In this document: one piece after another, positions 7,813 to 42,512 of the stretch
Numbering within the stretch: position 1 is the first letter of the stretch
How the letters are laid out: the number at the start of each line of letters is the position of its first letter
IMG/VR virus record: IMGVR_UViG_3300046004_001116
Coordinates: 1-64,000 of that record
Source of the DNA: a virus
Reading direction: 5' to 3' (one strand)
Length of the DNA: 64,000 bases
Position numbers and translations under genes: made by a program
Notes under the pieces: model-generated
The model's input: the letters and a program-made list of their open reading frames with translations, nothing else
Told to the model about the DNA's origin: nothing
Databases searched by the model: none

Positions 7813-7815
7813 AGT

Positions 7816-30021: not shown

Positions 30022-30046
30022 ATACACAACTATAACCAACATATCT

Positions 30047-30079
30047 AAGCTCCAGAATTAATTTTCTGGAGCTTTTTTT
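30047..30079 (+). terminator. Attenuator terminator 1
   Basis: aagctccagaa-ttaatt-ttctggagcttttttt. Confidence 0.85.
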
Positions 30080-30091
30080 ATTGCGATTAAT

Positions 30092-30147
30092 TTAACAAAA
30101 CTTTAACATATAGAATTTGCTTGGTATGAAATTATTGGTTAATTTTG
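30092..30147 (+). promoter_or_regulatory. Bacteroidota sigma-A type promoter with TTAACA boxes
   Basis: TTTG 30116, TAATTTTG 30140. Confidence 0.75.
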
Positions 30148-30172
30148 CTCTATAATTAAAAACAACATTATT

Positions 30173-30325
30173 ATGGCAACAATTACAACATACAAGATTA
30201 AAGAAAAGTACAAATCACTTTTAGCTACATATGCTTGGACTAAACTTGATTTAAACGGATCTTATTCTAAAGAAGATTGGAATAAAGCTGGTTTTAAAGA
30301 TTCTGTCTTAGATATTAATTGTTAA
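30173..30325 (+). CDS. Small hypothetical protein (50 aa)
   Basis: ORF MATITTYKIKEKY... behind the promoter. Confidence 0.5.
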   Translation: MATITTYKIKEKYKSLLATYAWTKLDLNGSYSKEDWNKAGFKDSVLDINC

Positions 30326-30690
30326 TAACTTTATGAATAAAAGTTTGCATTAGTCAATTTAATTGGTTAATTTTAACTAACAATAAAAATTTAATTATCA
30401 TGTCTATACAAAATCGAAAGTTAATCAGAAGCATATACGGAATCCACGGTCTAATCAATATTTTAAGTGGGTTTGACGTAAACGGAAATAATTGTTAAAA
30501 TTTCATTTAGCTTCGGCTAAGTATTATTCGTGGTACCAGGCGGGCAGTAGGGGTTACCGAATTAAAACAAACAAGAATGGTGAAATATGGGCTGGCCAGG
30601 CAACATAAAGTAACAACGACGCTCAGCGGTATCAATTCAAAACCTCCTCGTGGTGATACTGGAAACTTGATTCGTCAAGGCTAATTTGAA

Positions 30691-30703
30691 GTTCATTGAC
30701 ATA
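30691..30703 (+). promoter_or_regulatory. boxA-like antitermination signal (second copy 34860-34872)
   Basis: gttcattgacata / attctttgacata just before the first tRNA of each operon. Confidence 0.55.
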
Positions 30704-30715
30704 GTGATAACATTT

Positions 30716-30790
30716 ACGAGATTAGCTCAGTTGGTTCAGAGCAACTCTTTTACACGGAGAAGGTCACAGGTTCGAATCCTGTATCTCGTA
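30716..30790 (+). tRNA. trnV: tRNA-Val(TAC)
   Basis: Cloverleaf, loop TTTACAC. Confidence 0.9.
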
Positions 30791-30993
30791 CTAATGAATT
30801 AAACGGTCTAAGGATTAGGACGCTGGCGTAAGGCACCGGCTGAAACGCCGACCATCGTTGGAGAGATTCTACTCTCTAATTCATAACACACTGCAGTGAT
30901 TGCCGGCCACACGCATCGGTTCTTAACGGGAAATCGTTCTCGTCGTTAGGTGAACAGACCGGACAAATTCCTTAGGTGGTGCTAGGGTCAACT

Positions 30994-31067
30994 GCTGCTA
31001 TAGACGAATTGGTTAAGTCGTCGCCCTTTCAAGGCGGAGGTTGCGGGTTCAAGTCCCGTTGGCAGTA
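30994..31067 (+). tRNA. trnE: tRNA-Glu(TTC)
   Basis: Cloverleaf, loop CTTTCAA. Confidence 0.9.
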
Positions 31068-31073
31068 CAACAT

Positions 31074-31148
31074 GAGCGCTGAAGCACAATCGGACGTGCA
31101 CCTGGCATACGGCCAGTAGGATATAGGTTCGAATCCTATCTTTGCTCC
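31074..31148 (+). tRNA. Atypical/pseudo tRNA, loop CATACGG (A33)
   Basis: D and T arms intact, weak acceptor, no U33. Confidence 0.5.
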
Positions 31149-31156
31149 AAATACTT

Positions 31157-31230
31157 TCTCCTGTCGTCTAGTCGGCTCAGGACGCTGCCCTTTCACGGCG
31201 GTAACGCGGGTTCGAATCCCGTCGGGAGAA
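31157..31230 (+). tRNA. trnE: tRNA-Glu(TTC)
   Basis: Cloverleaf, loop CTTTCAC. Confidence 0.9.
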
Positions 31231-31332
31231 CAACACTACCGAATGGTGTAATCTATGTGTTAAAAGAACAGCGCTGGCTGAGACCAGAGTTCCACCGTAA
31301 TTGTAGTAATCGGTGATTCGGTAAACAATATT

Positions 31333-31404
31333 GGTTTCGTAGCTCAGAGGCAGAGCGGCACCCTGTTAAGGTGAGGGTCGGGATTTCGATATTCCCCGAG
31401 ACCG
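31333..31404 (+). tRNA. trnN: tRNA-Asn(GTT)
   Basis: Cloverleaf, loop CTGTTAA. Confidence 0.88.
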
Positions 31405-31415
31405 CAATTAAAAAA

Positions 31416-31586
31416 TAGCTTTCAGCCAAAGGTGGCGGGCAATACTTTTACTCAGTTATGTATGGACTGTCTTAGACGTAAGGTGGAAAATCATAAAGGT
31501 TTAAATAGGATATGACTCTGATTGTCGACGAGATGAGAGTATCTGATAAGTATCGCTGGGTGGGTTCGATTCCCATTGTGAGCTCA
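31416..31586 (+). ncRNA. tRNA-like RNA with ~100-nt extended arm replacing the anticodon arm
   Basis: AGCTTTCA/TGTGAGCT stem, D-like arm, T arm gtgggTTCGATTcccat. Confidence 0.55.
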
Positions 31587-31590
31587 AGAT

Positions 31591-31664
31591 TCCTCAGTAG
31601 CTCAGTTGGTTAGAGCGTCGGACTGTTAATCCGTAGGTCCTAGGTTCGAGTCCTAGCTGGGGAG
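31591..31664 (+). tRNA. trnN: tRNA-Asn(GTT)
   Basis: Cloverleaf. Confidence 0.92.
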
Positions 31665-31822
31665 CAAAAGTTGATTACTTTAGGTTACAGGAATTACCAG
31701 AAACCTGTCGACATACTCTTGGGCGTAAGGCAAGAGCAGATTTTGAACCAGGTTTAATCTGTAATGTAAACCTACTCGTATTTAACAATTATACGTTAAG
31801 TCTAATCAACTAAATTGTAACT

Positions 31823-31908
31823 GGCCTTGTAGCTCAATTGGATTGCATTACGCTTAGAGCCACCGACTTTTAATCGGTAGGTTGGGGGTTCGAGTCCCTC
31901 CAGGGTCA
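31823..31908 (+). tRNA. trnK: tRNA-Lys(TTT) with enlarged D loop
   Basis: Loop CTTTTAA; ~12 extra nt in the D loop. Confidence 0.8.
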
Positions 31909-32006
31909 CAAAGGAATAATTACTCTGGCGGTGGTGCGGGTAAGCGCCGGGAAGTAACGCCCGGTTGGCAAAGTAAATTATTCAGAGGTAAGGAAAAGAC
32001 TAAACT

Positions 32007-32079
32007 GGGGCTATGGTATAGATGGCTAACACACTTGCCTTGCACGCAGGAATCCCGAGTTCGAGGCTCGGTAGCTCCA
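32007..32079 (+). tRNA. trnA: tRNA-Ala(TGC)
   Basis: G3-U70, loop CTTGCAC. Confidence 0.92.
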
Positions 32080-32336
32080 CGGGAGTTTTTGAAACGGCCT
32101 ACTCTTTGAGGCACGTGATATTTGTACTTTAACAAAATTCACAGTATGGCAAGAGGGTTTTTGGAAGCGGCTTTAAGGTATAAGCAATGTATTTGACCAG
32201 AACAAAATCATAGTATAACTATCTTCTGTCACGTTAGCAGACCGGGTATGGCTACGCACAGTTTGGAAGTAATATGTGTATTAAACAAAACTTTCACCGC
32301 GGCGAAACGTTTCCCAAAACAAAGTAGTCGCAAGAA

Positions 32337-32421
32337 GGGAGTACGCCGGAGTTGGAGAGCCGGAGCGGTCTGTAACACCGTTGGCATTACGCCTGAGTAG
32401 GTTCGAATCCTACTACTTTCA
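32337..32421 (+). tRNA. trnY: tRNA-Tyr(GTA)
   Basis: Long variable arm, loop CTGTAAC. Confidence 0.9.
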
Positions 32422-32424
32422 CAA

Positions 32425-32503
32425 AAATTGAAGCGGAGGTAAGAGTTACATCAACTTTTTATTGGAAAAAACAAACAAACACTCTTCCTAATATTCTCAA
32501 TTT
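32425..32503 (+). ncRNA. Minimal Y-RNA-like gene
   Basis: GAAGCGG...GAGTTACATC / CTC...TAATATTCTC stem shared with the RNAs upstream of Ro60. Confidence 0.7.
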
Positions 32504-32506
32504 CAT

Positions 32507-32577
32507 TGTCCGATGGTGTAACGGTAACACTACTGTTTTTGGTGCAGTCATTCAAGGTTCGAATCCTTGTCGGATAA
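32507..32577 (+). tRNA. trnQ: tRNA-Gln(TTG)
   Basis: Cloverleaf. Confidence 0.9.
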
Positions 32578-32586
32578 CTATTATAT

Positions 32587-32659
32587 TGGAATATGGTATA
32601 ATGGCTCATTACACGTGGTTTTGGTCCACGCAATCAAGGTTCGATTCCTTGTATTCCAA
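32587..32659 (+). tRNA. trnQ: tRNA-Gln(TTG)
   Basis: Cloverleaf. Confidence 0.9.
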
Positions 32660-32664
32660 CAATT

Positions 32665-32739
32665 CGCGTAGCGATCCACAGAGAGAGGTTACCCGCCTTG
32701 GACGCGGGGTTATTGCAGGTTCGAGTCCTGTCTACGCGA
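32665..32739 (+). tRNA. trnP: tRNA-Pro(TGG), divergent D arm
   Basis: Loop CTTGGAC; perfect acceptor and T arm. Confidence 0.8.
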
Positions 32740-32750
32740 CAAATTTTTAA

Positions 32751-32823
32751 CGGGGTGTAGATCAGTTGGTAGATCGCGTGCTTTGGGAGCATGAGGCCGC
32801 AGGTTCGAGTCCTGTCACCCCGA
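32751..32823 (+). tRNA. trnP: tRNA-Pro(TGG)
   Basis: Cloverleaf. Confidence 0.92.
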
Positions 32824-32889
32824 CGAGACGAGACTGTTACTAATTCATAGGGGCCCATTCACGCAAGTGTCTGCATAGAATTAGAATTT

Positions 32890-32963
32890 AGGTGGTTAGC
32901 TCAACTGGTTAGAGCACTCGCCTGATACGCGAGAGGTTATGAGTTCGACTCTCATATCACCTA
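32890..32963 (+). tRNA. trnI: tRNA-Ile(GAT)
   Basis: Cloverleaf. Confidence 0.92.
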
Positions 32964-33031
32964 CTAAAAAATATAAAAGTCAAATGAAACAAATTTTAGT
33001 CAACTCCTCATAGGTTAGCATTGCTAAACTT

Positions 33032-33262
33032 ATGACTCAGAAATTGAGAATTTGGAGAGTAGTTCCCGTTCGTAACGGCGTTCAGGCTCCCACTTTTTTT
33101 GTAGAAACTACAGAAGAAGGACGCGACAAGGCAGAAGTATCTGCTTTAAAACAAGCAAGACAAAGGTCAGGCTTGAGTAAATTTGATTGTTGGAATTTCA
33201 ATCTTATCAAAACAGAATTAAGGTTAGATAAGTTTGGAAGATATGTAAAGTATCACCAATAA
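33032..33262 (+). CDS. Small hypothetical protein within the tRNA array
   Basis: 76-aa ORF filling an inter-tRNA gap. Confidence 0.6.
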   Translation: MTQKLRIWRVVPVRNGVQAPTFFVETTEEGRDKAEVSALKQARQRSGLSKFDCWNFNLIKTELRLDKFGRYVKYHQ

Positions 33263-33308
33263 TAAACTGGGCAGTTTTCGGTCTGCGTAATAATTAAAAC
33301 CGAAATTT

Positions 33309-33380
33309 GGTGATGTAGCTCAGCGGCAGAGCACCCGGCTCATATCCGGAAGGTCGAGGTCTCGGAATCCTCCATCGCTA
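33309..33380 (+). tRNA. trnM: tRNA-Met(CAT), atypical T loop
   Basis: Loop CTCATAT; T loop CTCGGAA. Confidence 0.75.
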
Positions 33381-33384
33381 CAAA

Positions 33385-33443
33385 TGTATACTTTAATATA
33401 CAATATGGTCTAAAACGGCTATAATTGTATATTAAAGTATACA
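33385..33443. repeat. 20-bp perfect inverted repeat
   Basis: tgtatactttaatatacaat / attgtatattaaagtataca. Confidence 0.85.
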
Positions 33444-33452
33444 AACAATAAA

Positions 33453-33594
33453 TTCCAGAAGCGGCAAAGAGAGTTACTTCGTCTGTTAAACGAGAGGTCG
33501 TAGGTTCGAGTCCTACTGCGTGTACCTTGATGGGAAACGTATAGCTCAGTTGGTTAGAGCGCTAAAAATCTCTCTCTTAATTATTCTCTGGCAA
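33453..33594 (+). ncRNA. YrlA-like Y RNA with permuted tRNA-like domain
   Basis: Shared terminal stem enclosing GTT hairpin, T arm, loop-closed acceptor, then D arm. Confidence 0.8.
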
Positions 33595-33597
33595 TTT

Positions 33598-33671
33598 GAC
33601 TCGGTAGCTCAGTTGGTAGTAGCACCTCACTTTTAATGAGGGGGTCGTGGGTTCGAGTCCCACCCGGGTCA
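33598..33671 (+). tRNA. trnK: tRNA-Lys(TTT)
   Basis: Cloverleaf. Confidence 0.92.
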
Positions 33672-33685
33672 CAAATATTAATCAT

Positions 33686-33763
33686 GGGAGCAGCTGGGAT
33701 AGCGCGGGTGGTGTCGAGCCACCTTTCACCGGTAGCTTGAGGTTCGAGTCCTCTTTGTTCCCC
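33686..33763 (+). tRNA. Atypical tRNA-like gene, 8-bp acceptor, loop TGTCGAG (G33)
   Basis: T arm tgaggTTCGAGTcctct; reduced D arm. Confidence 0.5.
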
Positions 33764-33777
33764 TAAATGTTATCAGT

Positions 33778-34029
33778 ATGACACGAGAACAGAAAATAGC
33801 AAAAAGGAAACTTCGTGCTTCTATCCACAGAGAAAAAAGAAACGAAAAGTACTTTAAAAAAATACGAGCGGCAAATGATATAGGCGGGTGGGTTCCACTT
33901 TATGCCGTTGATAGCCGTGGATACGTTTCAGGTTCATGGCCTGACTCAAGTAGCCCTACAGGATATTCACAAAGATGTTCTTATGATGCCTGGGGAACTT
34001 GTCAAAGTCCATGCAACGGAGACTGTTAA
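33778..34029 (+). CDS. Small basic/Cys-containing hypothetical protein
   Basis: 83-aa ORF ending CQSPCNGDC. Confidence 0.6.
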   Translation: MTREQKIAKRKLRASIHREKRNEKYFKKIRAANDIGGWVPLYAVDSRGYVSGSWPDSSSPTGYSQRCSYDAWGTCQSPCNGDC

Positions 34030-34033
34030 AAAT

Positions 34034-34092
34034 TGGGAGGTCGCATAGTTGGTTAGTGCTCATCTTCGGTGGTTCGAGTCCACCCCTCCCCA
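34034..34092 (+). ncRNA. tRNA-like RNA lacking the anticodon arm
   Basis: Acceptor, D and T arms intact; 8-nt linker tcatcttc. Confidence 0.7.
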
Positions 34093-34281
34093 CTAAGATT
34101 TAATCTGCTAAACGCAAAATGGTATGTTGCCGCCGATAACTACGGAAACACAAGCAAGGAAGGAGGTCACTTGCCGCATACAGGAAACACAGATCCGTTC
34201 ATTTTGTTAGTAAGGTATCGGGTACATTCGGTTGTACTTGGGTATTCACCAATCTGTGCCGGTGACAGATTAAATTTTTAT

Positions 34282-34355
34282 GGCCATGTAACTCAGTTGG
34301 TTAGAGTGCCCGCCTCATAAGCGGAGAGTCCTTGGTTCGAGTCCAAGCTTGGCCA
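34282..34355 (+). tRNA. tRNA-CAT (elongator Met or Ile2)
   Basis: Loop CTCATAA. Confidence 0.85.
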
Positions 34356-34545
34356 CATGAAAACGCAAGTAACGGTATTATTCCGAAGCGATGATAAGAA
34401 TTACAATTGGTCATCAGTATTATCTAAAGAAGTAGGATATGAATTTGTTAAACTACAGAAAATAGAGAACACGGATAATCCAAGATGGCCAAAATGGTCT
34501 TTTATCATTACTTACAAAAAAAGTAAATAAAAATGCAAAAGTGTA

Positions 34546-34574
34546 AAACTAACCGTTTTCACGTGTATATATAA
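34546..34574 (+). promoter_or_regulatory. RAACT-N17-TATATAA promoter driving leader 2
   Basis: Matches the 29862 element. Confidence 0.65.
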
Positions 34575-34596
34575 TAAACAACAAATAAATTAAACA

Positions 34597-34704
34597 ATGC
34601 AAACACAATCATTACATACAAGATCGTTTACGTCAAGCTGGAACTTATGTTTCGGACTAGGGCGCGATTGTGACATAGATCTGGAGGATCTGACTACTAT
34701 CTAA
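34597..34704 (+). CDS. Leader peptide of tRNA operon 2 (MQTQSLHTRSFTSSWNLCFGLGRDCDIDLEDLTTI)
   Basis: A-rich start; TCTGGAG at 34680-34686. Confidence 0.8.
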   Translation: MQTQSLHTRSFTSSWNLCFGLGRDCDIDLEDLTTI

Positions 34705-34729
34705 TGTAATTTGCATACAAGATATTTTC

Positions 34730-34762
34730 AAAGCTCCAGAATTAATTTTCTGGAGCTTTTTT
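34730..34762 (+). terminator. Attenuator terminator 2 (identical hairpin to terminator 1)
   Basis: aaagctccagaa-ttaatt-ttctggagctttttt. Confidence 0.85.
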
Positions 34763-34774
34763 ATTGCGATTAAT

Positions 34775-34830
34775 TTAACAAAACTTTAACATATTAAATT
34801 TGCTTTACATCTTTTAATTGGTTAATTTTA
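34775..34830 (+). promoter_or_regulatory. Bacteroidota sigma-A type promoter with TTAACA boxes
   Basis: TTTG 34799, TAATTTTA 34823. Confidence 0.7.
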
Positions 34831-34887
34831 TACTGTAATTAAAAACAACCATTAATTGCATTCTTTGACATACTGAAAACTAAAATT

Positions 34888-34960
34888 GGTGCTGTGGCAG
34901 ATCAGGTGATTGCGGCGGACTGAAAATCCGTAGGAGTGGGTTCGATACCCACCGGCACCA
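34888..34960 (+). tRNA. trnF: tRNA-Phe(GAA)
   Basis: Cloverleaf. Confidence 0.9.
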
Positions 34961-35075
34961 CACAAACTTATTTAAGGTTCGACCCTCACCCATTTTGCGC
35001 TCAATTCGCATTTACTTTGGAAGACTGGTTCTAGAGGGAGCTACCGACTGATAAGTGGCCGCACACGCGGCAAAT

Positions 35076-35150
35076 GCCTGAGTGGGTAAACTGGTAAAGC
35101 CGCTTGACTTAGGATCAAGAGTTCTGTGGGTTCGACTCCCACCTCGGGTA
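35076..35150 (+). tRNA. trnL: tRNA-Leu(TAG), short variable arm
   Basis: Loop CTTAGGA; A73. Confidence 0.85.
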
Positions 35151-35234
35151 CAAATTATTTAGTTCCATGCATAAGCTCAAACAGCTCCCTGAAATTACAT
35201 GGTTTAAAGGAGCTTAAACTAAATAATAAATTTT

Positions 35235-35311
35235 GGTGCCGCAGCATATCGGCGTATGATGCTCGCCTGTCACGTGGGAGATTGCGGGTTCGAATCCCGT
35301 CGGTACCGCCA
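35235..35311 (+). tRNA. trnD: tRNA-Asp(GTC), CCA encoded
   Basis: Cloverleaf, weak D arm. Confidence 0.88.
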
Positions 35312-35351
35312 TCTGGTTAAGATTCCAGAGAACAATCAAAAATCTACAAAC

Positions 35352-35425
35352 ACCCTCATGGTCCAGTTGGAGTGGATGTCGCCCTGTCACGGCGAAGATC
35401 GCGGGTTCGAGTCCCGCTGGGGGTG
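35352..35425 (+). tRNA. trnD: tRNA-Asp(GTC)
   Basis: Cloverleaf. Confidence 0.9.
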
Positions 35426-35531
35426 CAAAAAACTGGGGTAGAAAAATCTTAGGACGGCAATCCGTAGATGTAATACGATGGTTACTGCACAAAGAGAAAA
35501 GTAATTTGCCGATGAAATTCACTTAGCAGTT

Positions 35532-35619
35532 TTCCTTTTGATGAAATTGGCAAACATGGCTCGCGCGAAGCGAGTGCTCAGGGTTTACTCTGATAAAGGT
35601 TCGAGTCCTTTAAGGGAAA
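35532..35619 (+). tRNA. Atypical class II tRNA, loop CGCGAAG (CGA anticodon, G33, Leu-like body)
   Basis: Full cloverleaf with long variable arm, A73. Confidence 0.6.
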
Positions 35620-35644
35620 CAAATTTCAGGAGTAATTAACCTGA

Positions 35645-35781
35645 AGCTGAATGGTTCGAAACATTCGATTGGTCATGGTGTATTGGGCACGGTAGAACGG
35701 AGTAATCGTACGCAGAGCGTTAGGCTCTCAACGGCGGTGAAAGGGAAAACAGGTTAAAGGTTCGAATCCTTAGGATCAGCT
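35645..35781 (+). ncRNA. tRNA-like RNA with two T-loop hairpins
   Basis: AGCTGA/TCAGCT closure; gttcgaa motifs at ~35654 and ~35760; D-like arm. Confidence 0.45.
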
Positions 35782-35852
35782 TGCGTTAAAGTGTAAAGGT
35801 TGCATGGGACTCTCATAAGGTCTACGGGGTGGTTCGAGTCCACGCTACGCTA
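35782..35852 (+). tRNA. Degenerate tRNA-CAT
   Basis: Loop CTCATAA, mismatched acceptor stem. Confidence 0.5.
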
Positions 35853-35939
35853 CAAAATTCTAAGTGTGTCTTGGTACGCTCTGACAACCGTCAACGACAA
35901 GGTCTCGGTAGGCAAAACGCGTTTGATCCTACCCATTCT

Positions 35940-36013
35940 GCAGTAGTAGCTCAGTTGGTAGAGCGCTGCCTTGCCAAGGCAGAGGTTCGCGGGTTCGAAT
36001 CCCGTCTACTGCT
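35940..36013 (+). tRNA. trnG: tRNA-Gly(GCC)
   Basis: Cloverleaf. Confidence 0.92.
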
Positions 36014-36020
36014 CAAATAT

Positions 36021-36094
36021 GCGGGTATGGTGTTTAACGGTTAGCACGTGAGCCTTCCAAGTTTGAAGTTTCGGTTCGAATCCGAATATCCGCT
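36021..36094 (+). tRNA. trnG: tRNA-Gly(TCC)
   Basis: Cloverleaf. Confidence 0.9.
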
Positions 36095-36099
36095 CAACT

Positions 36100-36173
36100 G
36101 GTCTTGTAGCTCAACTGGATAGAGCATTGGTTTTCTAAACCAACGGTTATGGGTTCGATTCCCGTCAAGATCA
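36100..36173 (+). tRNA. trnR: tRNA-Arg(TCT)
   Basis: Cloverleaf. Confidence 0.92.
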
Positions 36174-36180
36174 CAAACAT

Positions 36181-36251
36181 ACGCCTATGGTGCAACGGTA
36201 GCATGACGGTCTCCAAAACCGTTGATAAAGGTTCGAATCCTTTTGGGCGTG
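36181..36251 (+). tRNA. trnW: tRNA-Trp(CCA)
   Basis: Cloverleaf. Confidence 0.92.
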
Positions 36252-36260
36252 CAAATATAA

Positions 36261-36347
36261 GGAGAGGTGCCAGAGTGGTCGATTGGACCGGTCTTGAAAA
36301 CCGGAGAGCGTGAAAGCGCTCCGTGGGTTCGAATCCCACCCTCTCTT
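36261..36347 (+). tRNA. trnS: tRNA-Ser(TGA)
   Basis: Class II cloverleaf. Confidence 0.92.
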
Positions 36348-36350
36348 CAA

Positions 36351-36498
36351 AATTAGAAGCGGTACATTGAGATACTTCAATATCCAAAACTGCCATTTGT
36401 TGGTTCGAGTCCAACCTGAGGTGTTAATAGCACCTCGGTGGTGAAATGGTAAACACAGCAGTCCCAAAACAAGACGCTCATGTAAACATTCTCTAATT
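36351..36498 (+). ncRNA. Second YrlA-like Y RNA with permuted tRNA-like domain
   Basis: TTAGAAGCGG-TACATTGAG / CTCATGTA-AACATTCTCTAA stem; T arm, loop-closed acceptor, D arm. Confidence 0.8.
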
Positions 36499-36503
36499 GA
36501 ATT

Positions 36504-36577
36504 GCTGGCGACGCATGAATGGTGGTGCACCGGATTTGTAACCCGGACTAGAGTCGGTTCGATCCCGACCGTCAGCT
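36504..36577 (+). tRNA. trnT: tRNA-Thr(TGT)
   Basis: Cloverleaf. Confidence 0.85.
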
Positions 36578-36583
36578 CAAAAT

Positions 36584-36654
36584 GGCCCTATGACCGAGCG
36601 GTTAGGTGCAGGTCTGCAAAATCTGTTAGGTTGGTTCGACTCCAACTGGTGCCT
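36584..36654 (+). tRNA. trnC: tRNA-Cys(GCA)
   Basis: Cloverleaf, U73. Confidence 0.9.
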
Positions 36655-36657
36655 CGA

Positions 36658-36852
36658 GAATAATCAGAGGACTCATCGCTGGAAACAGAGGAAGTTCGCG
36701 ACAACTAAACCTAACATGGGAGATGTAAAAATCGTTCGTACCACGGAAGTTGCAAGTTAAACAGTTTGAGGGTGTCGGTTTCCCTATGAGAACGGGTTAA
36801 TGCAAAGTCAAATGATGGGATAAAACAGAAACGCGGCTACGCTCAATTATTC
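36658..36852 (+). ncRNA. rnpB: Minimal RNase P RNA
   Basis: GAGGAAGTTCGCG (CR-I) and AACAGAAACGCGGCTA (CR-V) forming P4; P1 GAATAAT/ATTATTC. Confidence 0.8.
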
Positions 36853-36857
36853 AAATT

Positions 36858-36939
36858 GCCCAGGTGGAGAAATTGGTAGACTCGCCAGCCTAAGGAGCTG
36901 GTGCCGCAAGGCGTGAGGGTTCGAGTCCCTCCTTGGGTA
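36858..36939 (+). tRNA. trnL: tRNA-Leu(AAG)
   Basis: Class II cloverleaf, loop CTAAGGA. Confidence 0.88.
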
Positions 36940-36951
36940 CAAAATTAAAAT

Positions 36952-37041
36952 GGGCCGATTGGTGTAACTGGGAATGAATACCAGCTTGGGTTAACACGAA
37001 CCTGTAGGTTCGGCTGAGAGTTCGAATCTCTCATCGGTCCC
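36952..37041 (+). ncRNA. Atypical tRNA-like gene with 8-bp acceptor and no clear anticodon
   Basis: GGGCCGAT/ATCGGTCC; T arm gagagTTCGAATctctc. Confidence 0.55.
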
Positions 37042-37157
37042 GGTATCTCCCAAGGGAGAAAACTCTGGTTGGTGGTCTGACCTTATAGACCGCAATAAGA
37101 CTGTCAAGGTAGGACGTCAGTTATAGAGAGGTGAGCCATACCTATTCCTCTCAACAT

Positions 37158-37232
37158 GGTGATTGTAGCTCAGTTGGTTAGAGCGCTGGTTTGTGGTACC
37201 AGAGGTCGCGGGTTCGACCCCCGTCATTCACC
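37158..37232 (+). tRNA. trnH: tRNA-His(GTG)
   Basis: G-1/C73, loop TTGTGGT. Confidence 0.92.
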
Positions 37233-37247
37233 CTAAAAAGAATACTT

Positions 37248-37397
37248 ATGAAAGGCATTGAATTAATTCCAATTGGGCCTGTTTCTGAAGAAGCAAAGGC
37301 TAGGTTAAAGAAACGATCTGAAAGGGATAAAGCAAGATTAGACCAAATGGTTAAAGACGCTAAAGAAGGCAAGTATGATCATATAATAAACAAATAG
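37248..37397 (+). CDS. Small hypothetical protein
   Basis: ATG 37248, MKGIELIPIG... Confidence 0.5.
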   Translation: MKGIELIPIGPVSEEAKARLKKRSERDKARLDQMVKDAKEGKYDHIINK

Positions 37398-37402
37398 AAA
37401 GC

Positions 37403-37624
37403 ATGAAAGCGGGAGCTAAAACAACAGACAAAGATTTTAATAACTTAATTACATACTTGGAAAGATTCAAAGGTGCTAATATTACAATCACTGTTGATAA
37501 AAATCCTTCGCCTGAAAAGATTGCTTATATAAAAGAAAGAATAAAGATAAGTGAGCAACGTGCTCAAAACGGCCGGGTGGTGGAACTGGTAGACACGCTG
37601 GGTTTAAGCCCCAGTGGGCAGTAA
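37403..37624 (+). CDS. Small hypothetical protein whose 3' end overlaps tRNA-Leu
   Basis: ORF reads into the tRNA at 37571. Confidence 0.45.
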   Translation: MKAGAKTTDKDFNNLITYLERFKGANITITVDKNPSPEKIAYIKERIKISEQRAQNGRVVELVDTLGLSPSGQ

Positions 37625-37656
37625 TGCCCGTGCGGGTTCGAATCCCGCTCTGGTCA
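37571..37656 (+). tRNA. trnL: tRNA-Leu(TAA)
   Basis: Class II cloverleaf. Confidence 0.92.
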
Positions 37657-37660
37657 CAAA

Positions 37661-37746
37661 GGAGAGGTAAGCATAGTGGTACTGCAGCGGATTGCTAATC
37701 CGTTCGGCGTTTATTCGTCGCGTGGGTTCGATCCCCACTCTCTCCG
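37661..37746 (+). tRNA. trnS: tRNA-Ser(GCT)
   Basis: Class II cloverleaf. Confidence 0.9.
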
Positions 37747-37765
37747 CAATATATAATAAAACAAT

Positions 37766-37837
37766 GGCCTGTTAGTTTAACGGATAGAACTCTGGTTTAC
37801 GGCATCAGCGATGGGGGTTCGAGTCCCTCACGGGTCA
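37766..37837 (+). tRNA. trnR: tRNA-Arg(ACG)
   Basis: Loop TTACGGC. Confidence 0.88.
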
Positions 37838-37861
37838 CTAATCAAATAAAAAACAAATGTC

Positions 37862-38314
37862 ATGGTATTTAGAAAGCTCGCAGATAGGCAGGAAGTTGAC
37901 TTATTACCATACGCACATGATTTCCTAACGGAACATCCAGAGCATAAACTCTACGTGGGTACGGATAGTCAAAACATCGGAAAAACTACAGTTTATGCAA
38001 CAGTTATTGTGTTTCATAATAACAACGGTGGTGGTCACGTTTTATATTCTAAGGTAACAGTACCTAGAATCGCGGACAGATGGACCAGATTGTGGAAAGA
38101 AGTAGAAATGTCAGTTCAAGCAGCTGACCTTTTAAAAGAAGGAGATTTTCATCCGGTAGATTTTATTGACTTGGATTTAAACCCAGACCCAAGATACAAA
38201 TCGAATATGGTCTTAAGATCAGCTGTTGGTTATGTTGAGAGTTTTGGTTACAAAGCAAGAGTAAAACCGAATGCGACTATTGCATCTTGTGTTGCAGATA
38301 GTATCTTCCGTTAA
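37862..38314 (+). CDS. RNase H-like YkuK (DUF458) family protein
   Basis: YVGTDSQ, RLWKEV..S, KPNA.IAS.VAD. Confidence 0.8.
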   Translation: MVFRKLADRQEVDLLPYAHDFLTEHPEHKLYVGTDSQNIGKTTVYATVIVFHNNNGGGHVLYSKVTVPRIADRWTRLWKEVEMSVQAADLLKEGDFHPVDFIDLDLNPDPRYKSNMVLRSAVGYVESFGYKARVKPNATIASCVADSIFR

Positions 38315-40889: not shown

Positions 40890-42512
40890 ATGAGCAGATT
40901 AACACCTTATTCAGACAAAAGAACAGCTACATCTAATGAAGCTTATTCTACCGTAGTGGAAAACTACATGGGCGGAAACTCTTTTAACGTTTCTCCGCTT
41001 GCAACTCTTAAAATTGTAACCGCAAGTTCAATCTTTGGAGAACCAAGATATTACCAAGACGGTATAGGATCTTCTAAAACTATTAAGAATCATTCAACTC
41101 TTATGGAGTATGATATCTTTAGTGATGGGGTGAAAGATAACCGAAGTGTAGTGGATGTATTTACTTCTGCAATTGACAATGCATTAGACTTTGACTTCAA
41201 AGCAACATTGGATTTTGCATTAGAACTACGTACAGAATACTTCATGCGTCTTAACCCAGCGGTTATCTTTGTTCGTGCTTCACAGCATCCAAACAGAGTT
41301 GCGTTTAATGAAGCTAATCCAGGCTACATGAAATCTATCGGAAAAGCAATCGCTTTAAGACCTGATGACGTAACAAACCAATTGGATTACTACATGTTCT
41401 TAAACGGTTCTAAGAAAGGTTTGCCTTCTTTACTTAAAAGAACTTGGGCTGATACTCTTGAGTCATTCTCTAGATATCAATTAAACAAATATAAAGGTAA
41501 AAGTCTTATTGACCTTGTAAGAATCTCACACGCAAGTAACGATGATATTACTGAGTTAATGAAGACAGGAACAATTAAAGTTACATCATCTGAACAAACT
41601 TGGGAAAGTTTAAAGAGTGCTGGAAAAACTTGGGTTGAGATTCTTGACACAATTAAAGTTCCTCACATGGCTCTTTTAAGAAACCTTCGTGGAATCTTTA
41701 CAGAAATCAATGATGCGGCTATTGCGGCTAAAGTTCTTGAGCAATTGGAATCTGGTGTTTTATACGGAAAGCAATTTCCTTTTAGATACTGGAGTGCTTT
41801 TAAAGCAATTCAATCCGCGGACGTTAATCACTCTGGATTAATTAAAGACAGTCTTGAAAAATGTATGGACCTTGCGGTTGCTAACATGCCAAAACTTGAC
41901 GGTCGAGTAATGTCTCTTTGTGATAACTCAGGTTCTGCTTGGGGATCTCTTAATTCAGAATACGGTTCTGTTACAGTGGCAGAGATTGCCAACTTGTCAG
42001 CAATCATTACTGCACAACAATCTGCGGAAGGTTATGTAGGAGTATTTGGTGACAGACTTAAAACTCGTTCTATCTCTAAAAGAAATGGTCTTTTAACTCA
42101 GTTAAATGAATCAAACACTGAAGGAAGAGGAATTGGTGGAGGAACTGAAAACGGAATTTGGTTATTCTGGGATAAAGCAATCAAGGATAAACAACACTGG
42201 GACACCGTGTTTATCTATTCTGATATGCAAGCAGGTCACGGAAACCTTTACGGCACAAACGAAAGAGACTATGCAGAGTTTGCGCACAAACGTTCTAACC
42301 GATACATTGATGTACTTGCATTAGTGGAAAAATATAGAAAAACTGTTAATCCAAAAGTTAACGTTTTCTCAGTACAAGTTGCTGGGTACGATAATACAGT
42401 ACTTCCTGAAAACTTATACCGTGGTGCAATCTTAGCAGGGTGGACGGGTAAAGAATGTCACTATGCCGACGCTGTTATAAAAGCTTGGAATGAAATAGAG
42501 AATCAAAAATAA
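40890..42512 (+). CDS. rsr: Ro60/TROVE-domain RNA-binding protein with vWA domain
   Basis: MALLRNLR, QFPFRY, DNSGSA (MIDAS), IYSDMQ. Confidence 0.9.
   Translation: MSRLTPYSDKRTATSNEAYSTVVENYMGGNSFNVSPLATLKIVTASSIFGEPRYYQDGIGSSKTIKNHSTLMEYDIFSDGVKDNRSVVDVFTSAIDNALDFDFKATLDFALELRTEYFMRLNPAVIFVRASQHPNRVAFNEANPGYMKSIGKAIALRPDDVTNQLDYYMFLNGSKKGLPSLLKRTWADTLESFSRYQLNKYKGKSLIDLVRISHASNDDITELMKTGTIKVTSSEQTWESLKSAGKTWVEILDTIKVPHMALLRNLRGIFTEINDAAIAAKVLEQLESGVLYGKQFPFRYWSAFKAIQSADVNHSGLIKDSLEKCMDLAVANMPKLDGRVMSLCDNSGSAWGSLNSEYGSVTVAEIANLSAIITAQQSAEGYVGVFGDRLKTRSISKRNGLLTQLNESNTEGRGIGGGTENGIWLFWDKAIKDKQHWDTVFIYSDMQAGHGNLYGTNERDYAEFAHKRSNRYIDVLALVEKYRKTVNPKVNVFSVQVAGYDNTVLPENLYRGAILAGWTGKECHYADAVIKAWNEIENQK

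What the first reader, a model, noticed from the sequence alone, without database searches (positions are those of the whole stretch)
30501..37152. About ten unexplained, self-closed structured RNAs interleaved with the tRNAs
Seen: inter-tRNA spacers whose two ends pair and which contain internal hairpins: 30501-30691, 30794-30884 (ATGAATTA/TAATTCAT), 31237-31323 (TACCGAAT/ATTCGGTA), 31669-31811 (AGTTGATTA/TAATCAACT), 31914-31983, 32082-32295, 34098-34275 (TTTAATCTG/CAGATTAAA), 34966-35056, 35429-35531, 37045-37152. Most are richer in G/C than the flanking DNA and lack ORFs. Inference: discrete ncRNAs released by tRNA processing, perhaps decoys for RNA-sensing or RNA-cleaving defences.
Basis: partly seen in the sequence, partly recalled or inferred. 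Interest (0 to 1): 0.7.

Follow-up and report, generated by a model that had tools for sequence, protein, structure and literature searches.

The report
Folded RNA cassettes between phage tRNAs
Between the tRNA genes of an uncultured lake jumbo phage lie small folded RNA units: one is a self-cutting ribozyme cassette shared with other phages, about five are end-paired orphans of unknown role, and the rest look like ordinary spacers.

Summary
The four quoted arm pairs are at the stated coordinates. Five elements have a terminal helix rarer than in shuffles: 30794-30884, 31237-31323, 31669-31811, 31914-31983 and 34098-34275 (p 0.001-0.026). One is borderline (34966-35056). Four are not end-closed (30501-30691, 32082-32295, 35429-35531, 37045-37152). 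Folding energy as a group does not beat control windows (p 0.07).

Element 1 is composite. It holds a small hairpin, a conserved ~100-nt RNA I call X (30526-30627), and a complete HDV-like self-cleaving ribozyme (30628-30690). I found this X-plus-ribozyme cassette in 10 phage loci, mostly inside tRNA arrays. P1, P2 and P3 covary (99 of 99 pair cells paired; 4 of 11 pairs changed on both sides).

Elements 2-10 have no homologue in about 1.4 Mb of related arrays, no tRNA likeness and no Rfam match.

End-paired spacers are common in related arrays (58 of 196, against 9.8 expected). There they come and go as cassettes bounded by the closing helix.

Release by tRNA end-processing is plausible. The decoy idea has no support. 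Earlier notes of this scan describe similar tRNA-array RNA modules on other DNA.

The parts
30507..30520 (+). Small hairpin TTAGC/GCTAA with a TTCG loop, followed by a T-rich run, at the 5' end of element 1 just after a 32-codon ORF (30400-30498). It looks like a terminator or attenuator.
   Evidence: Read from the sequence. The terminator scan did not list it, because it has only 2 G-C pairs.
30526..30627 (+). 'X' RNA, a conserved ~100-nt RNA with no known family. It has hairpin H1 (30526-35/30555-62) with a conserved 19-nt G-rich loop, a small hairpin H2 (30578-80/30596-98), an 8-nt palindrome (30592-99) and a conserved A-rich single-stranded tail. The ribozyme makes its 3' end.
   Evidence: nhmmer hit to L118/L121/L130 at E 7.5e-8. 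The pattern scan gave 11 true loci of 13. Alignments A2-A5. The H1 arms differ between members but stay complementary. No Rfam hit.
30628..30690 (+). HDV-like self-cleaving ribozyme, with the predicted cut between C30627 and G30628. Helices: P1 30628-33/30655-60 (G.U at its base), P2 30636-41/30685-90, P3 30642-44/30652-54, P1.1 30646-47/30661-62, P4 30666-70/30675-79. The catalytic C candidate is 30681.
   Evidence: Rfam RF02682 scores 33.1 bits over the full model, below the 44-bit cut-off. Descriptor scans. On alignment A5, 99 of 99 pair cells are paired and 4 of 11 pairs changed on both sides. P2 occurs in four complementary versions, with C-N-A-A in front of its 3' strand in all 9 members.
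30794..30884 (+). e2: an end-paired module (8 bp) with three inner hairpins. It fills the first half of the Val-Glu spacer. Orphan.
   Evidence: p 0.026. No homologue.
31237..31323 (+). e3: an end-paired module (8 bp, extendable to 11) spanning the Glu-Asn spacer. Orphan.
   Evidence: (p 0.0045). The single-sequence covariance model R2 found only itself in 1.44 Mb.
31669..31811 (+). e4: an end-paired module (9 bp) with a long inner arm and a 7-bp hairpin. It has the best folding z score (-2.64). Orphan.
   Evidence: (p 0.002). Model R1 found only itself. No match in GenBank phages.
31914..31983 (+). e5: a 70-nt end-paired module (8 bp perfect, about 10 bp with one bulge) with a G+C-rich tip. 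Orphan.
   Evidence: (p 0.002).
32082..32295 (+). e6: not supported as one closed RNA. Only a local hairpin around 32185-32213 has one compensatory change (32188 T>G with 32210 A>C) in a related strain.
   Evidence: z +0.75. Closure p 0.07 and 0.45. A natural variant breaks 6 of 11 paired positions of the minimum-energy fold.
34098..34275 (+). e7: an end-paired module (10 bp) with three inner arms, directly after a small tRNA-like unit without an anticodon arm (34035-34093). Orphan.
   Evidence: (p 0.001). It is absent from 5 metagenome relatives that keep the neighbouring ORF and the mini-tRNA. No match in GenBank phages.
34966..35056 (+). e8: a rod-like fold with borderline end pairing (6 bp).
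   Evidence: p 0.052 and 0.17.
35154..35227 (+).
   Evidence: (p 0.0005).
35429..35531 (+). e9: not supported. It has two weak local hairpins and no end pairing.
   Evidence: z -0.45. Closure p 0.58 and 0.90. Probability of end pairing 0.16.
37045..37152 (+). e10: not end-closed. It is a row of local hairpins behind a tRNA-like remnant (36950-37035).
   Evidence: z -0.78. Closure p 0.60 and 0.58. Probability of end pairing 0.00.

Best explanation
The tRNA array of this uncultured lake jumbo phage is a mixed array of RNA genes. The ten flagged spacers fall into three classes.

(1) Element 1 is a cassette made of a conserved ~100-nt RNA, X, followed by an HDV-like ribozyme. The ribozyme very probably cuts between C30627 and G30628. 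That would free X with a 2',3'-cyclic phosphate end. The ribozyme would stay on the 5' leader of tRNA-Val until RNase P removes it.

(2) Five elements (e2, e3, e4, e5, e7), perhaps also e8, and the unlisted 35154-35227 are discrete, lineage-specific RNA cassettes whose two ends pair. They are co-transcribed with the tRNAs. They would be set free when the upstream tRNA is cut at its CCA-less 3' end and RNase P cuts the next tRNA. The terminal helix would then shield them from exonucleases. Whether they act in trans or only keep neighbouring tRNAs folding independently is unknown.

(3) e6, e9 and e10 are ordinary spacers with local hairpins.

Shown: the helices, their statistics, the ribozyme family and its covariation, and the cassette-like turnover in relatives. 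Inferred: transcription as one precursor, the cutting steps, RNA stability and any function.
For: Ribozyme. All HDV-like helices are present, with G.U at the base of P1 and C-N-A-A before the 3' strand of P2. Across 9 distinct family members, 99 of 99 pair cells form pairs. Four of 11 pairs changed on both sides, and slid controls reach only 24-67%. P2 occurs in four complementary versions. Of the 3 listed variants in e1, the 2 that lie in the ribozyme fall in the P4 loop and at the N of C-N-A-A.

Family. There are 10 members among the 94 sources searched with model R3. Seven of 9 loci lie inside same-strand tRNA arrays.

End-paired cassettes. Closure p is 0.001-0.026 for five listed elements and 0.0005 for 35154-35227. 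The predicted probability of end pairing is 0.70-0.98. The closing helices start 3-6 nt after the discriminator. Thirty of 31 tRNAs lack CCA and all 31 have C next.

Generality. 58 of 196 distinct spacers in related arrays are end-paired at p<0.05, against 9.8 expected. Forty of these 58 have neither a T-loop motif nor the Y-RNA motif, although this 40 still includes the mini RNase P homologues. In relatives such units are present or absent between otherwise conserved linkers, with the gap matching the closing helix: Phe-Lys 70 vs 9 nt, Pro-Ile 66 vs 6-7 nt, Met-Leu 90 vs 8 nt.

Known RNA genes in the same array (the RNase-P-like and Y-like RNAs) show the same end pairing.
Against: No homologue of e2-e10 was found. 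This holds for nhmmer against about 130 related loci, nhmmer against 323 spacers, single-sequence covariance models of e4 and e3 over 1.44 Mb, and GenBank phages for e2, e4 and e7. So there is no covariation test for them.

e7 is missing from 5 relatives that keep its neighbours.

Folding energies of the ten are not clearly better than control windows (p 0.07).

A hairpin abutting the 3' strand of the closing helix, as in a tRNA top half, is not clearly more frequent than one abutting the 5' strand (16 vs 12 of 19).

No data show that any of these RNAs accumulates. The RNA-library records were long contigs and may hold DNA.

The ribozyme scores below Rfam's cut-off (33.1 vs 44 bits) and its cleavage is untested.
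Confidence: 0.55

Rival explanations
1. The spacers act only in cis. The end-paired folds have no life of their own. They keep each spacer folded on itself so that neighbouring tRNAs fold and are cut correctly, and they are degraded after processing.
For: The spacers are not conserved in sequence while the end pairing recurs widely. The helices sit a few nt from the tRNA ends. Many tRNA junctions in this and related arrays need only 1-10 nt, so function need not lie in the inner sequence.
Against: If 1-10 nt suffice, 70-180-nt folded inserts are not needed for processing. Their multi-branched interiors are more than an insulator needs. This reading differs from the best explanation only in the fate of the RNA, which was not measured.
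Confidence: 0.22
2. They are decayed or highly aberrant tRNA genes, and their acceptor stems survive as the closing helix.
For: Other spacers of the same array do hold tRNA-like remnants: 33464-33524, 35782-35852, 36941-37044 and 34035-34093. Spacer lengths near 85, 166 and 250 nt in relatives could be multiples of a tRNA unit. In e3 and e7 a hairpin abuts the 3' strand of the closing helix, as a T arm does.
Against: None of e1-e10 matches any of 740 distinct phage tRNAs at E<=1, while four other spacers do. There is no tRNA model hit in them at E<=10. Perfect 8-10-bp helices would not outlast the loss of every other tRNA feature.
Confidence: 0.07
3. They are DNA-level inverted repeats. The arms would be ends of tiny mobile elements, recombination scars or protein-binding palindromes, not RNA helices.
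For: Presence or absence is bounded by the inverted repeat in relatives. All closing helices are pure Watson-Crick, so they carry no strand information. X holds an 8-nt palindrome that changes yet stays palindromic.
Against: Each element has its own arms and occurs once. There are no repeated copies in the genome, no flanking direct repeats seen by eye and no transposase. Hairpin-bounded deletion during replication would give the same pattern without any mobility.
Confidence: 0.08
4. They are decoys or sponges for host RNA-sensing or RNA-cutting defences, or clients of the phage's own Ro60 protein.
For: The phage carries a Ro60/TROVE gene at 40890-42512 and Y-RNA-like genes in the array. Fast turnover of sequences would fit an arms race.
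Against: There are no anticodon-arm-like hairpins (0 found, 1.5 expected). The Y-RNA end motif seen in this clade (GAAGCGG with a matching 3' strand) is absent from the ten, except for an unpaired GGAAGCGG in e6. Nothing ties them to any defence system, and the host is unknown.
Confidence: 0.08

Closest known systems
Theta ribozymes: minimal HDV-like ribozymes next to tRNA genes of gut Caudoviricetes (PMC10879173; abstract and passages read)
   Same: An HDV-like double-pseudoknot ribozyme inside a phage tRNA cluster that would shape RNA ends without a host nuclease. Five relatives of the cassette (L145, L146, L149, L151, L154) lack P4, like the minimal forms.
   Different: The cleavage site abuts a conserved non-tRNA RNA (X), not a tRNA 3' end. 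The window's copy and three others have a P4. The phages come from lake water rather than mammalian gut, and the paper says the association is 'currently limited to' gut phages. No suppressor tRNA or recoding is involved. The paper's lists of examples are in supplements that I could not see.
Phage T4 RNAC and RNAD, small RNAs 'of yet unknown functions' (PMC9697503, passages read). That they lie in the T4 tRNA cluster is my recollection.
   Same: Non-tRNA small RNAs made together with phage tRNAs, with function unknown after decades.
   Different: No sequence comparison was made. The elements here are many, lineage-specific and end-paired, and their accumulation is untested.
[quoted passage not shown]
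   Same: Structured non-coding RNAs that travel with phage tRNA genes. A relative of this phage has a GOLLD-like match inside its array (L041 14632-15091, 96 bits).
   Different: Those are 400-800-nt conserved families. The elements here are 70-180 nt, have no family, and gave no GOLLD or ROOL match in the window.
Other RNA genes of the same array: the Y-RNA-like RNA (33455-33594) and the miniature RNase-P-like RNA (36658-36852)
   Same: Same transcription unit, same end-paired architecture and same tight spacing to the flanking tRNAs.
   Different: Those two match known families in sequence and have homologues in many related phages. e2-e10 have neither.

Membership tests
HDV-like (delta-like) self-cleaving ribozymes | Nested double pseudoknot P1, P1.1, P2, P3 (P4 optional) in the canonical order | tested here: met
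   All helices can be drawn at 30628-30690. P1, P3 and P1.1 are paired in 99 of 99 cells across 9 members, and 4 of 11 pairs changed on both sides. P2 occurs in four complementary versions.
HDV-like (delta-like) self-cleaving ribozymes | G at +1 forming a G.U wobble at the base of P1. That this feature defines the family is recalled. | tested here: met
   The G.U pair is kept in 9 of 9 members.
HDV-like (delta-like) self-cleaving ribozymes | Catalytic cytosine in J4/2 | tested here: met
   C-N-A-A lies directly before the 3' strand of P2 in all 9 members. In the window it is C30681.
HDV-like (delta-like) self-cleaving ribozymes | Score at or above a curated Rfam cut-off | tested here: not met
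   RF02682 scores 33.1 bits against a cut-off of 44. The same model misses the four relatives searched, L147, L148, L151 and L154, so it is narrow.
HDV-like (delta-like) self-cleaving ribozymes | Self-cleavage in vitro | not testable with these tools
   Needs transcription and a cleavage assay.
Theta ribozymes (PMC10879173) | Minimal form without P4 | tested here: not met
   The window's copy has a 5-bp P4 with a UUCG loop. Five relatives lack P4.
Theta ribozymes (PMC10879173) | Cleavage site at the 3' end of a tRNA | tested here: not met
   The site abuts X RNA. In L145, L146 and L149 a tRNA ends about 105 nt upstream.
tRNA (RF00005), for e1-e10 | Cloverleaf with D and T arms that the tRNA models can detect | tested here: not met
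   No tRNA hit inside any of the ten at E<=10. ARAGORN finds none. No nhmmer likeness to 740 tRNAs.
Y-RNA-like (YrlA, RF02553), for e1-e10 | Terminal stem with the Ro-binding region and a tRNA-like module | tested here: not met
   YrlA hits fall at 33455-33594 and elsewhere, none inside the ten. The clade's GAAGCGG end motif occurs only in e6, without a pairing partner.
GOLLD / ROOL | Match to the family model | tested here: not met
   No hit in the window at gathering score, or at E<=10 in 30300-38000.
Stable small RNAs of phage tRNA clusters (T4 RNAC/RNAD type) | Accumulate as discrete stable RNAs during infection | not testable with these tools
   Only contigs of RNA libraries were on hand.

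The most novel reading that the evidence does not exclude
tRNA arrays of lake jumbo phages are modular RNA-gene arrays. Short end-paired RNAs are gained and lost as precise cassettes between tRNAs. They would be matured by the phage's own RNA enzymes, namely a miniature RNase P RNA and HDV-like ribozymes, and would serve as fast-evolving trans-acting RNAs. Examples would be clients of the phage Ro60 or baits for host RNA-targeting defences. X RNA, released with a cyclic-phosphate end, would be the first conserved member of this set.
Probability: 0.15. Interest if true: 0.8.

Novelty: new variant of a known kind. Interest (0 to 1): 0.55.

Why it matters
Phage tRNA clusters are usually annotated as tRNAs plus junk spacers. 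Here at least one spacer is a self-cleaving ribozyme cassette with a conserved partner RNA of unknown function. This extends tRNA-cluster HDV-like ribozymes from gut phages to lake jumbo phages, and from tRNA 3' ends to a non-tRNA RNA. The wider pattern is that 30% of spacers in related arrays are end-paired and turn over as cassettes. That suggests a large, uncatalogued pool of small phage RNAs that could be tested directly by small-RNA sequencing.

Tried and rejected
Thermodynamics alone. z scores of the ten against shuffles and against 30 control windows do not set the group apart (p 0.07).

Rfam. Gathering mode on the window and E-value mode on the array, on the 20 spacers and on relatives gave nothing for e2-e10 or for X.

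RF02682 over 50 related records gave 0 hits, and the tool's own controls did not ring either. One search shows that the model misses true relatives, so this negative carries no weight. RF00373 over 45 records gave 0 hits. Homologues of the RNase-P-like RNA were later found with nhmmer in the other set of loci.

My first HDV descriptor was too loose: 27 rows, only one canonical. A second had a regex fault. The corrected one is.

The RNase P descriptor was too strict and found only the window.

Homologue searches for e2-e10 all gave nothing: blastn and nhmmer, covariance models of e4 and e3, and GenBank phages near and distant. e5, e6, e8, e9 and e10 were not tried with models of their own or in GenBank distant mode.

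Top-half-of-tRNA mimicry: 3'-abutting against 5'-abutting hairpins came out 16 vs 12 of 19, which is not decisive.

Anticodon-arm decoys: 0 found against 1.5 expected.

Shared motifs among the ten: one common 9-mer between e2 and e4, seen by eye, is within chance by my estimate.

The X pattern in 185,579 prokaryote genomes gave 41 hits, about the number chance gives by my estimate. None has the ribozyme core.

Reads. All four runs were contigs, so they show no RNA ends, levels or strands. Parts of the array without laid contigs mean nothing. I draw nothing from that. Only 40 of 465 difference rows were shown, so the variant analysis is a small sample.

Literature. Searches found no paper on a phage-encoded RNase P RNA. 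One search found three papers on theta ribozymes. PMC2330249 held none of the terms I asked for.

Full report
CONTEXT. The window is the first 64 kb of an 85.9-kb IMG/VR virus record, estimated about 30% complete. It encodes a T4-type major capsid protein, a prohead protease and a TROVE (Ro60) protein. Eleven sequencing runs hold half or more of the sampled words of the array. All are labelled lake water metagenome; two may be the source, and the other nine come from nine studies. The + strand between 30716 and 37838 holds 31 ARAGORN tRNAs plus three that only Rfam sees. Two identical strong terminators (30047-30074 and 34730-34759), each followed by a repeated promoter-like stretch, divide it into two operons. 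Thirty of 31 tRNAs lack an encoded CCA. All 31 have C after the discriminator, and 20 have CAA.

THE OBSERVATION. The four quoted arm pairs are present at the stated coordinates. I tested each spacer for a perfect Watson-Crick helix joining its first 12 and last 25 bases, against 2000 shuffles. Eight of 19 spacers reach p<0.05 (Fisher 1e-8):
- e3, 8 bp, p 0.0045
- e4, 9 bp, p 0.002
- e5, 8 bp, p 0.002
- e7, 10 bp, p 0.001
- the unlisted 35154-35227, 11 bp, p 0.0005
- three spacers that hold Y-RNA-like or RNase-P-like RNAs

e2 closes only the first half of its spacer (p 0.026 with a free 3' partner). e8 is borderline (0.052 and 0.17). e1, e6, e9 and e10 show nothing beyond chance. When each element is folded alone, the first eight bases pair with the 3' end with probability 0.70-0.98 for e2-e8, 0.16 for e9 and 0.00 for e10. 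Folding energy is a weak signal: mean z is -0.94 for the ten against -0.44 for 30 control windows (p 0.07).

ELEMENT 1 IS A RIBOZYME CASSETTE. A sub-threshold Rfam match (RF02682, 33.1 bits, full model) led to a hand model of a complete HDV-like ribozyme at 30628-30690. It has a P1 of 6 bp with G.U at its base, P2, P3, P1.1, a P4 with a UUCG loop, and C30681 in a C-N-A-A junction.

nhmmer then found a homologue of 30531-30665 in three related records. A pattern made from three shared motifs found 13 viral loci, of which 11 are true.

In the alignment of 9 distinct members, P1, P3 and P1.1 form pairs in 99 of 99 cells, and 4 of 11 pairs changed on both sides. With the partners slid by 1-3 columns, only 24-67% pair. 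P2 occurs as four different complementary pairs of strands. Five members lack P4.

Upstream of the cleavage site lies X, about 100 nt, with these features:
- a hairpin whose arms differ between members but stay complementary, with a conserved G-rich loop
- a small second hairpin with one compensated change
- an 8-nt palindrome that differs between the window and the others yet stays a palindrome
- conserved A-rich single strands

X matches no Rfam family. Seven of 9 cassette loci lie in same-strand tRNA arrays. A model of the whole cassette finds 10 members in 94 sources and nothing else above chance. The same pattern in prokaryote genomes gave only chance-level hits, none with a ribozyme core.

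ELEMENTS 2-10 ARE ORPHANS. I collected 45 related loci through the TROVE protein, 41 through the RNase-H-like protein next to the array and 5 through a small ORF inside the array.
- None of e2-e10 has an nhmmer match in these loci or in 323 inter-tRNA spacers cut from them.
- Single-sequence covariance models of e4 and e3 found only themselves in 1.44 Mb.
- GenBank phages gave nothing for e2, e4 or e7.
- None resembles any of 740 distinct tRNAs, whereas four other spacers do.
- The five relatives that keep the ORF 33778-34029 and the following tRNA-like unit lack e7.
- In a related strain, e6 carries 12 listed changes. These break 6 of 11 paired positions of its minimum-energy fold and compensate one pair in a local hairpin.

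By contrast, other spacers of the same array are conserved: the Y-like RNA, the RNase-P-like RNA, 35621-35939, and the mini-tRNA.

THE PATTERN IS GENERAL. In the related arrays, 58 of 196 distinct spacers of 55-260 nt are end-paired at p<0.05 (9.8 expected), and 36 at p<0.01. Fifteen of the 58 hold a T-loop motif, six hold the clade's Y-RNA motif, and 40 hold neither. Homologues of the miniature RNase P RNA are among these 40.

Between close relatives, such units are present or absent while the few linker bases on either side stay the same. Examples are Phe-Lys 70 vs 9 nt, Pro-Ile 66 vs 6-7 nt and Met-Leu 90 vs 8 nt. One small family shows a compensated change in an inner hairpin (L125 vs L136).

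MECHANISM. Shown: the helices, their positions 3-6 nt behind the upstream discriminator (and, for e3, e4, e5 and e7, 6-23 nt ahead of the next tRNA), the CCA-less tRNA ends, the ribozyme family, and cassette turnover.

Inferred from established tRNA processing (endonucleolytic 3' cutting of CCA-less precursors, RNase P at 5' ends):
- Each end-paired unit would be released as a discrete RNA whose terminal helix blocks exonucleases.
- X, which is not end-paired, instead gets its 3' end from the ribozyme.
- The ribozyme stays on the leader of the next tRNA until RNase P removes it.

Nothing shows what the released RNAs do. The decoy idea found no support: there are no anticodon-arm mimics, and no Y-RNA motif with a partner. 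A tRNA-top-half arrangement is not significantly enriched.

COMPARISON WITH THE KNOWN.
- The ribozyme works like the theta ribozymes of gut phages (PMC10879173; abstract and passages). It fails two of their defining features, since it has a P4 and no tRNA at the cleavage site, and it comes from another habitat.
- The orphan cassettes resemble T4 RNAC/RNAD in being unexplained small RNAs of a phage (PMC9697503, passages; their location in the T4 tRNA cluster is recalled).
- They resemble GOLLD/ROOL in travelling with phage tRNAs (PMC5737381, passages).
- Earlier notes of this scan describe similar tRNA-array RNA modules and HDV-like ribozymes in other viral genomes. I did not test those.

VERDICT. 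The new result inside the flagged coordinates is the X-plus-HDV-like cassette. The remaining end-paired units are real features of the sequence, but they are orphans. Their status as functional RNAs rests on architecture and on the behaviour of similar units in relatives, not on covariation or expression.

Noticed in passing
window 36658-36852 (+); L109 9401-9606, L110 8715-8920, L114 2845-3044, L115 1781-1986, L118 9566-9804, L120 8570-8778, L139 8944-9139: A miniature (~195 nt) RNase-P-like RNA between tRNA-Cys and tRNA-Leu. RF00373 scores 26.4 bits, with E 3.4e-7 for the genome. CR-I, CR-V and a 7-bp P4 with a bulged U are present, and most of the S-domain is absent. Eleven nhmmer homologues in related arrays reach E 5e-21. 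By eye, the P4 strands differ in L118 and L120 but stay complementary.
   Followed up: partly
window 33455-33594 (+) and 40890-42512 (+); also 32425-32503 and 36351-36498: A full-length YrlA-type Y-RNA-like match (34.3 bits, below the cut-off) with T arm, closed acceptor-like hairpin and D arm in permuted order, and a TROVE/Ro60 gene 7 kb downstream. Two more spacers carry the clade's GAAGCGG end motif. Thirty-four nhmmer hits in the TROVE-related loci.
   Followed up: partly
window 33778-34093 (+); L140-L144: An 83-codon ORF is always followed by a ~58-nt tRNA-like unit that has acceptor, D and T arms but no anticodon arm. The pair is conserved in 5 metagenome contigs, and the acceptor stems differ but stay complementary.
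   Followed up: partly
window 35621-35939 (+): This spacer is conserved over 150-290 nt in 13 related loci (E down to 1.8e-14) and holds T-loop motifs and a weak tRNA match (35782-35852, 24 bits). It may be a tRNA-like RNA with a long insertion.
   Followed up: no
L041 14632-15091 and 279-647: A 386-kb relative has a GOLLD-like match (96 bits, E 6e-24, below the cut-off of 150) with a tRNA inside it, and a tmRNA (62.5 bits), both in its tRNA region.
   Followed up: no
window 30716-37838: Thirty of 31 tRNAs lack an encoded CCA. All have C after the discriminator and 20 have CAA, which points to one uniform 3' processing rule.
   Followed up: partly
window 30044-30170 and 34728-34854; also near 7815 and 40720, and 67206, 68801, 69704 in the full record: A repeated module, made of a strong terminator hairpin plus a promoter-like stretch, precedes both tRNA operons. 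Parts of it recur at five other places in the genome.
   Followed up: no
window 35531-35620; 31075-31147, 31823-31908, 36504-36577: The two tRNA finders disagree. ARAGORN's tRNA-Ser(cga) at 35531-35620 has no Rfam tRNA match, and three Rfam tRNAs are missed by ARAGORN.
   Followed up: no
window 30592-30599; same place in L145-L154: X RNA holds an 8-nt palindrome that reads CTGGCCAG in the window and TCGGCCGA in most of the others. It changes but stays self-complementary, which may mean dimerisation or a DNA-level site.
   Followed up: no
L018, L021, L027, L028, L030, L034 tRNA arrays: Close relatives differ by clean presence or absence of 66-166-nt end-paired units between the same two tRNAs. 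A 166-nt Arg-Pro unit is kept in six distinct versions (seven loci).
   Followed up: partly
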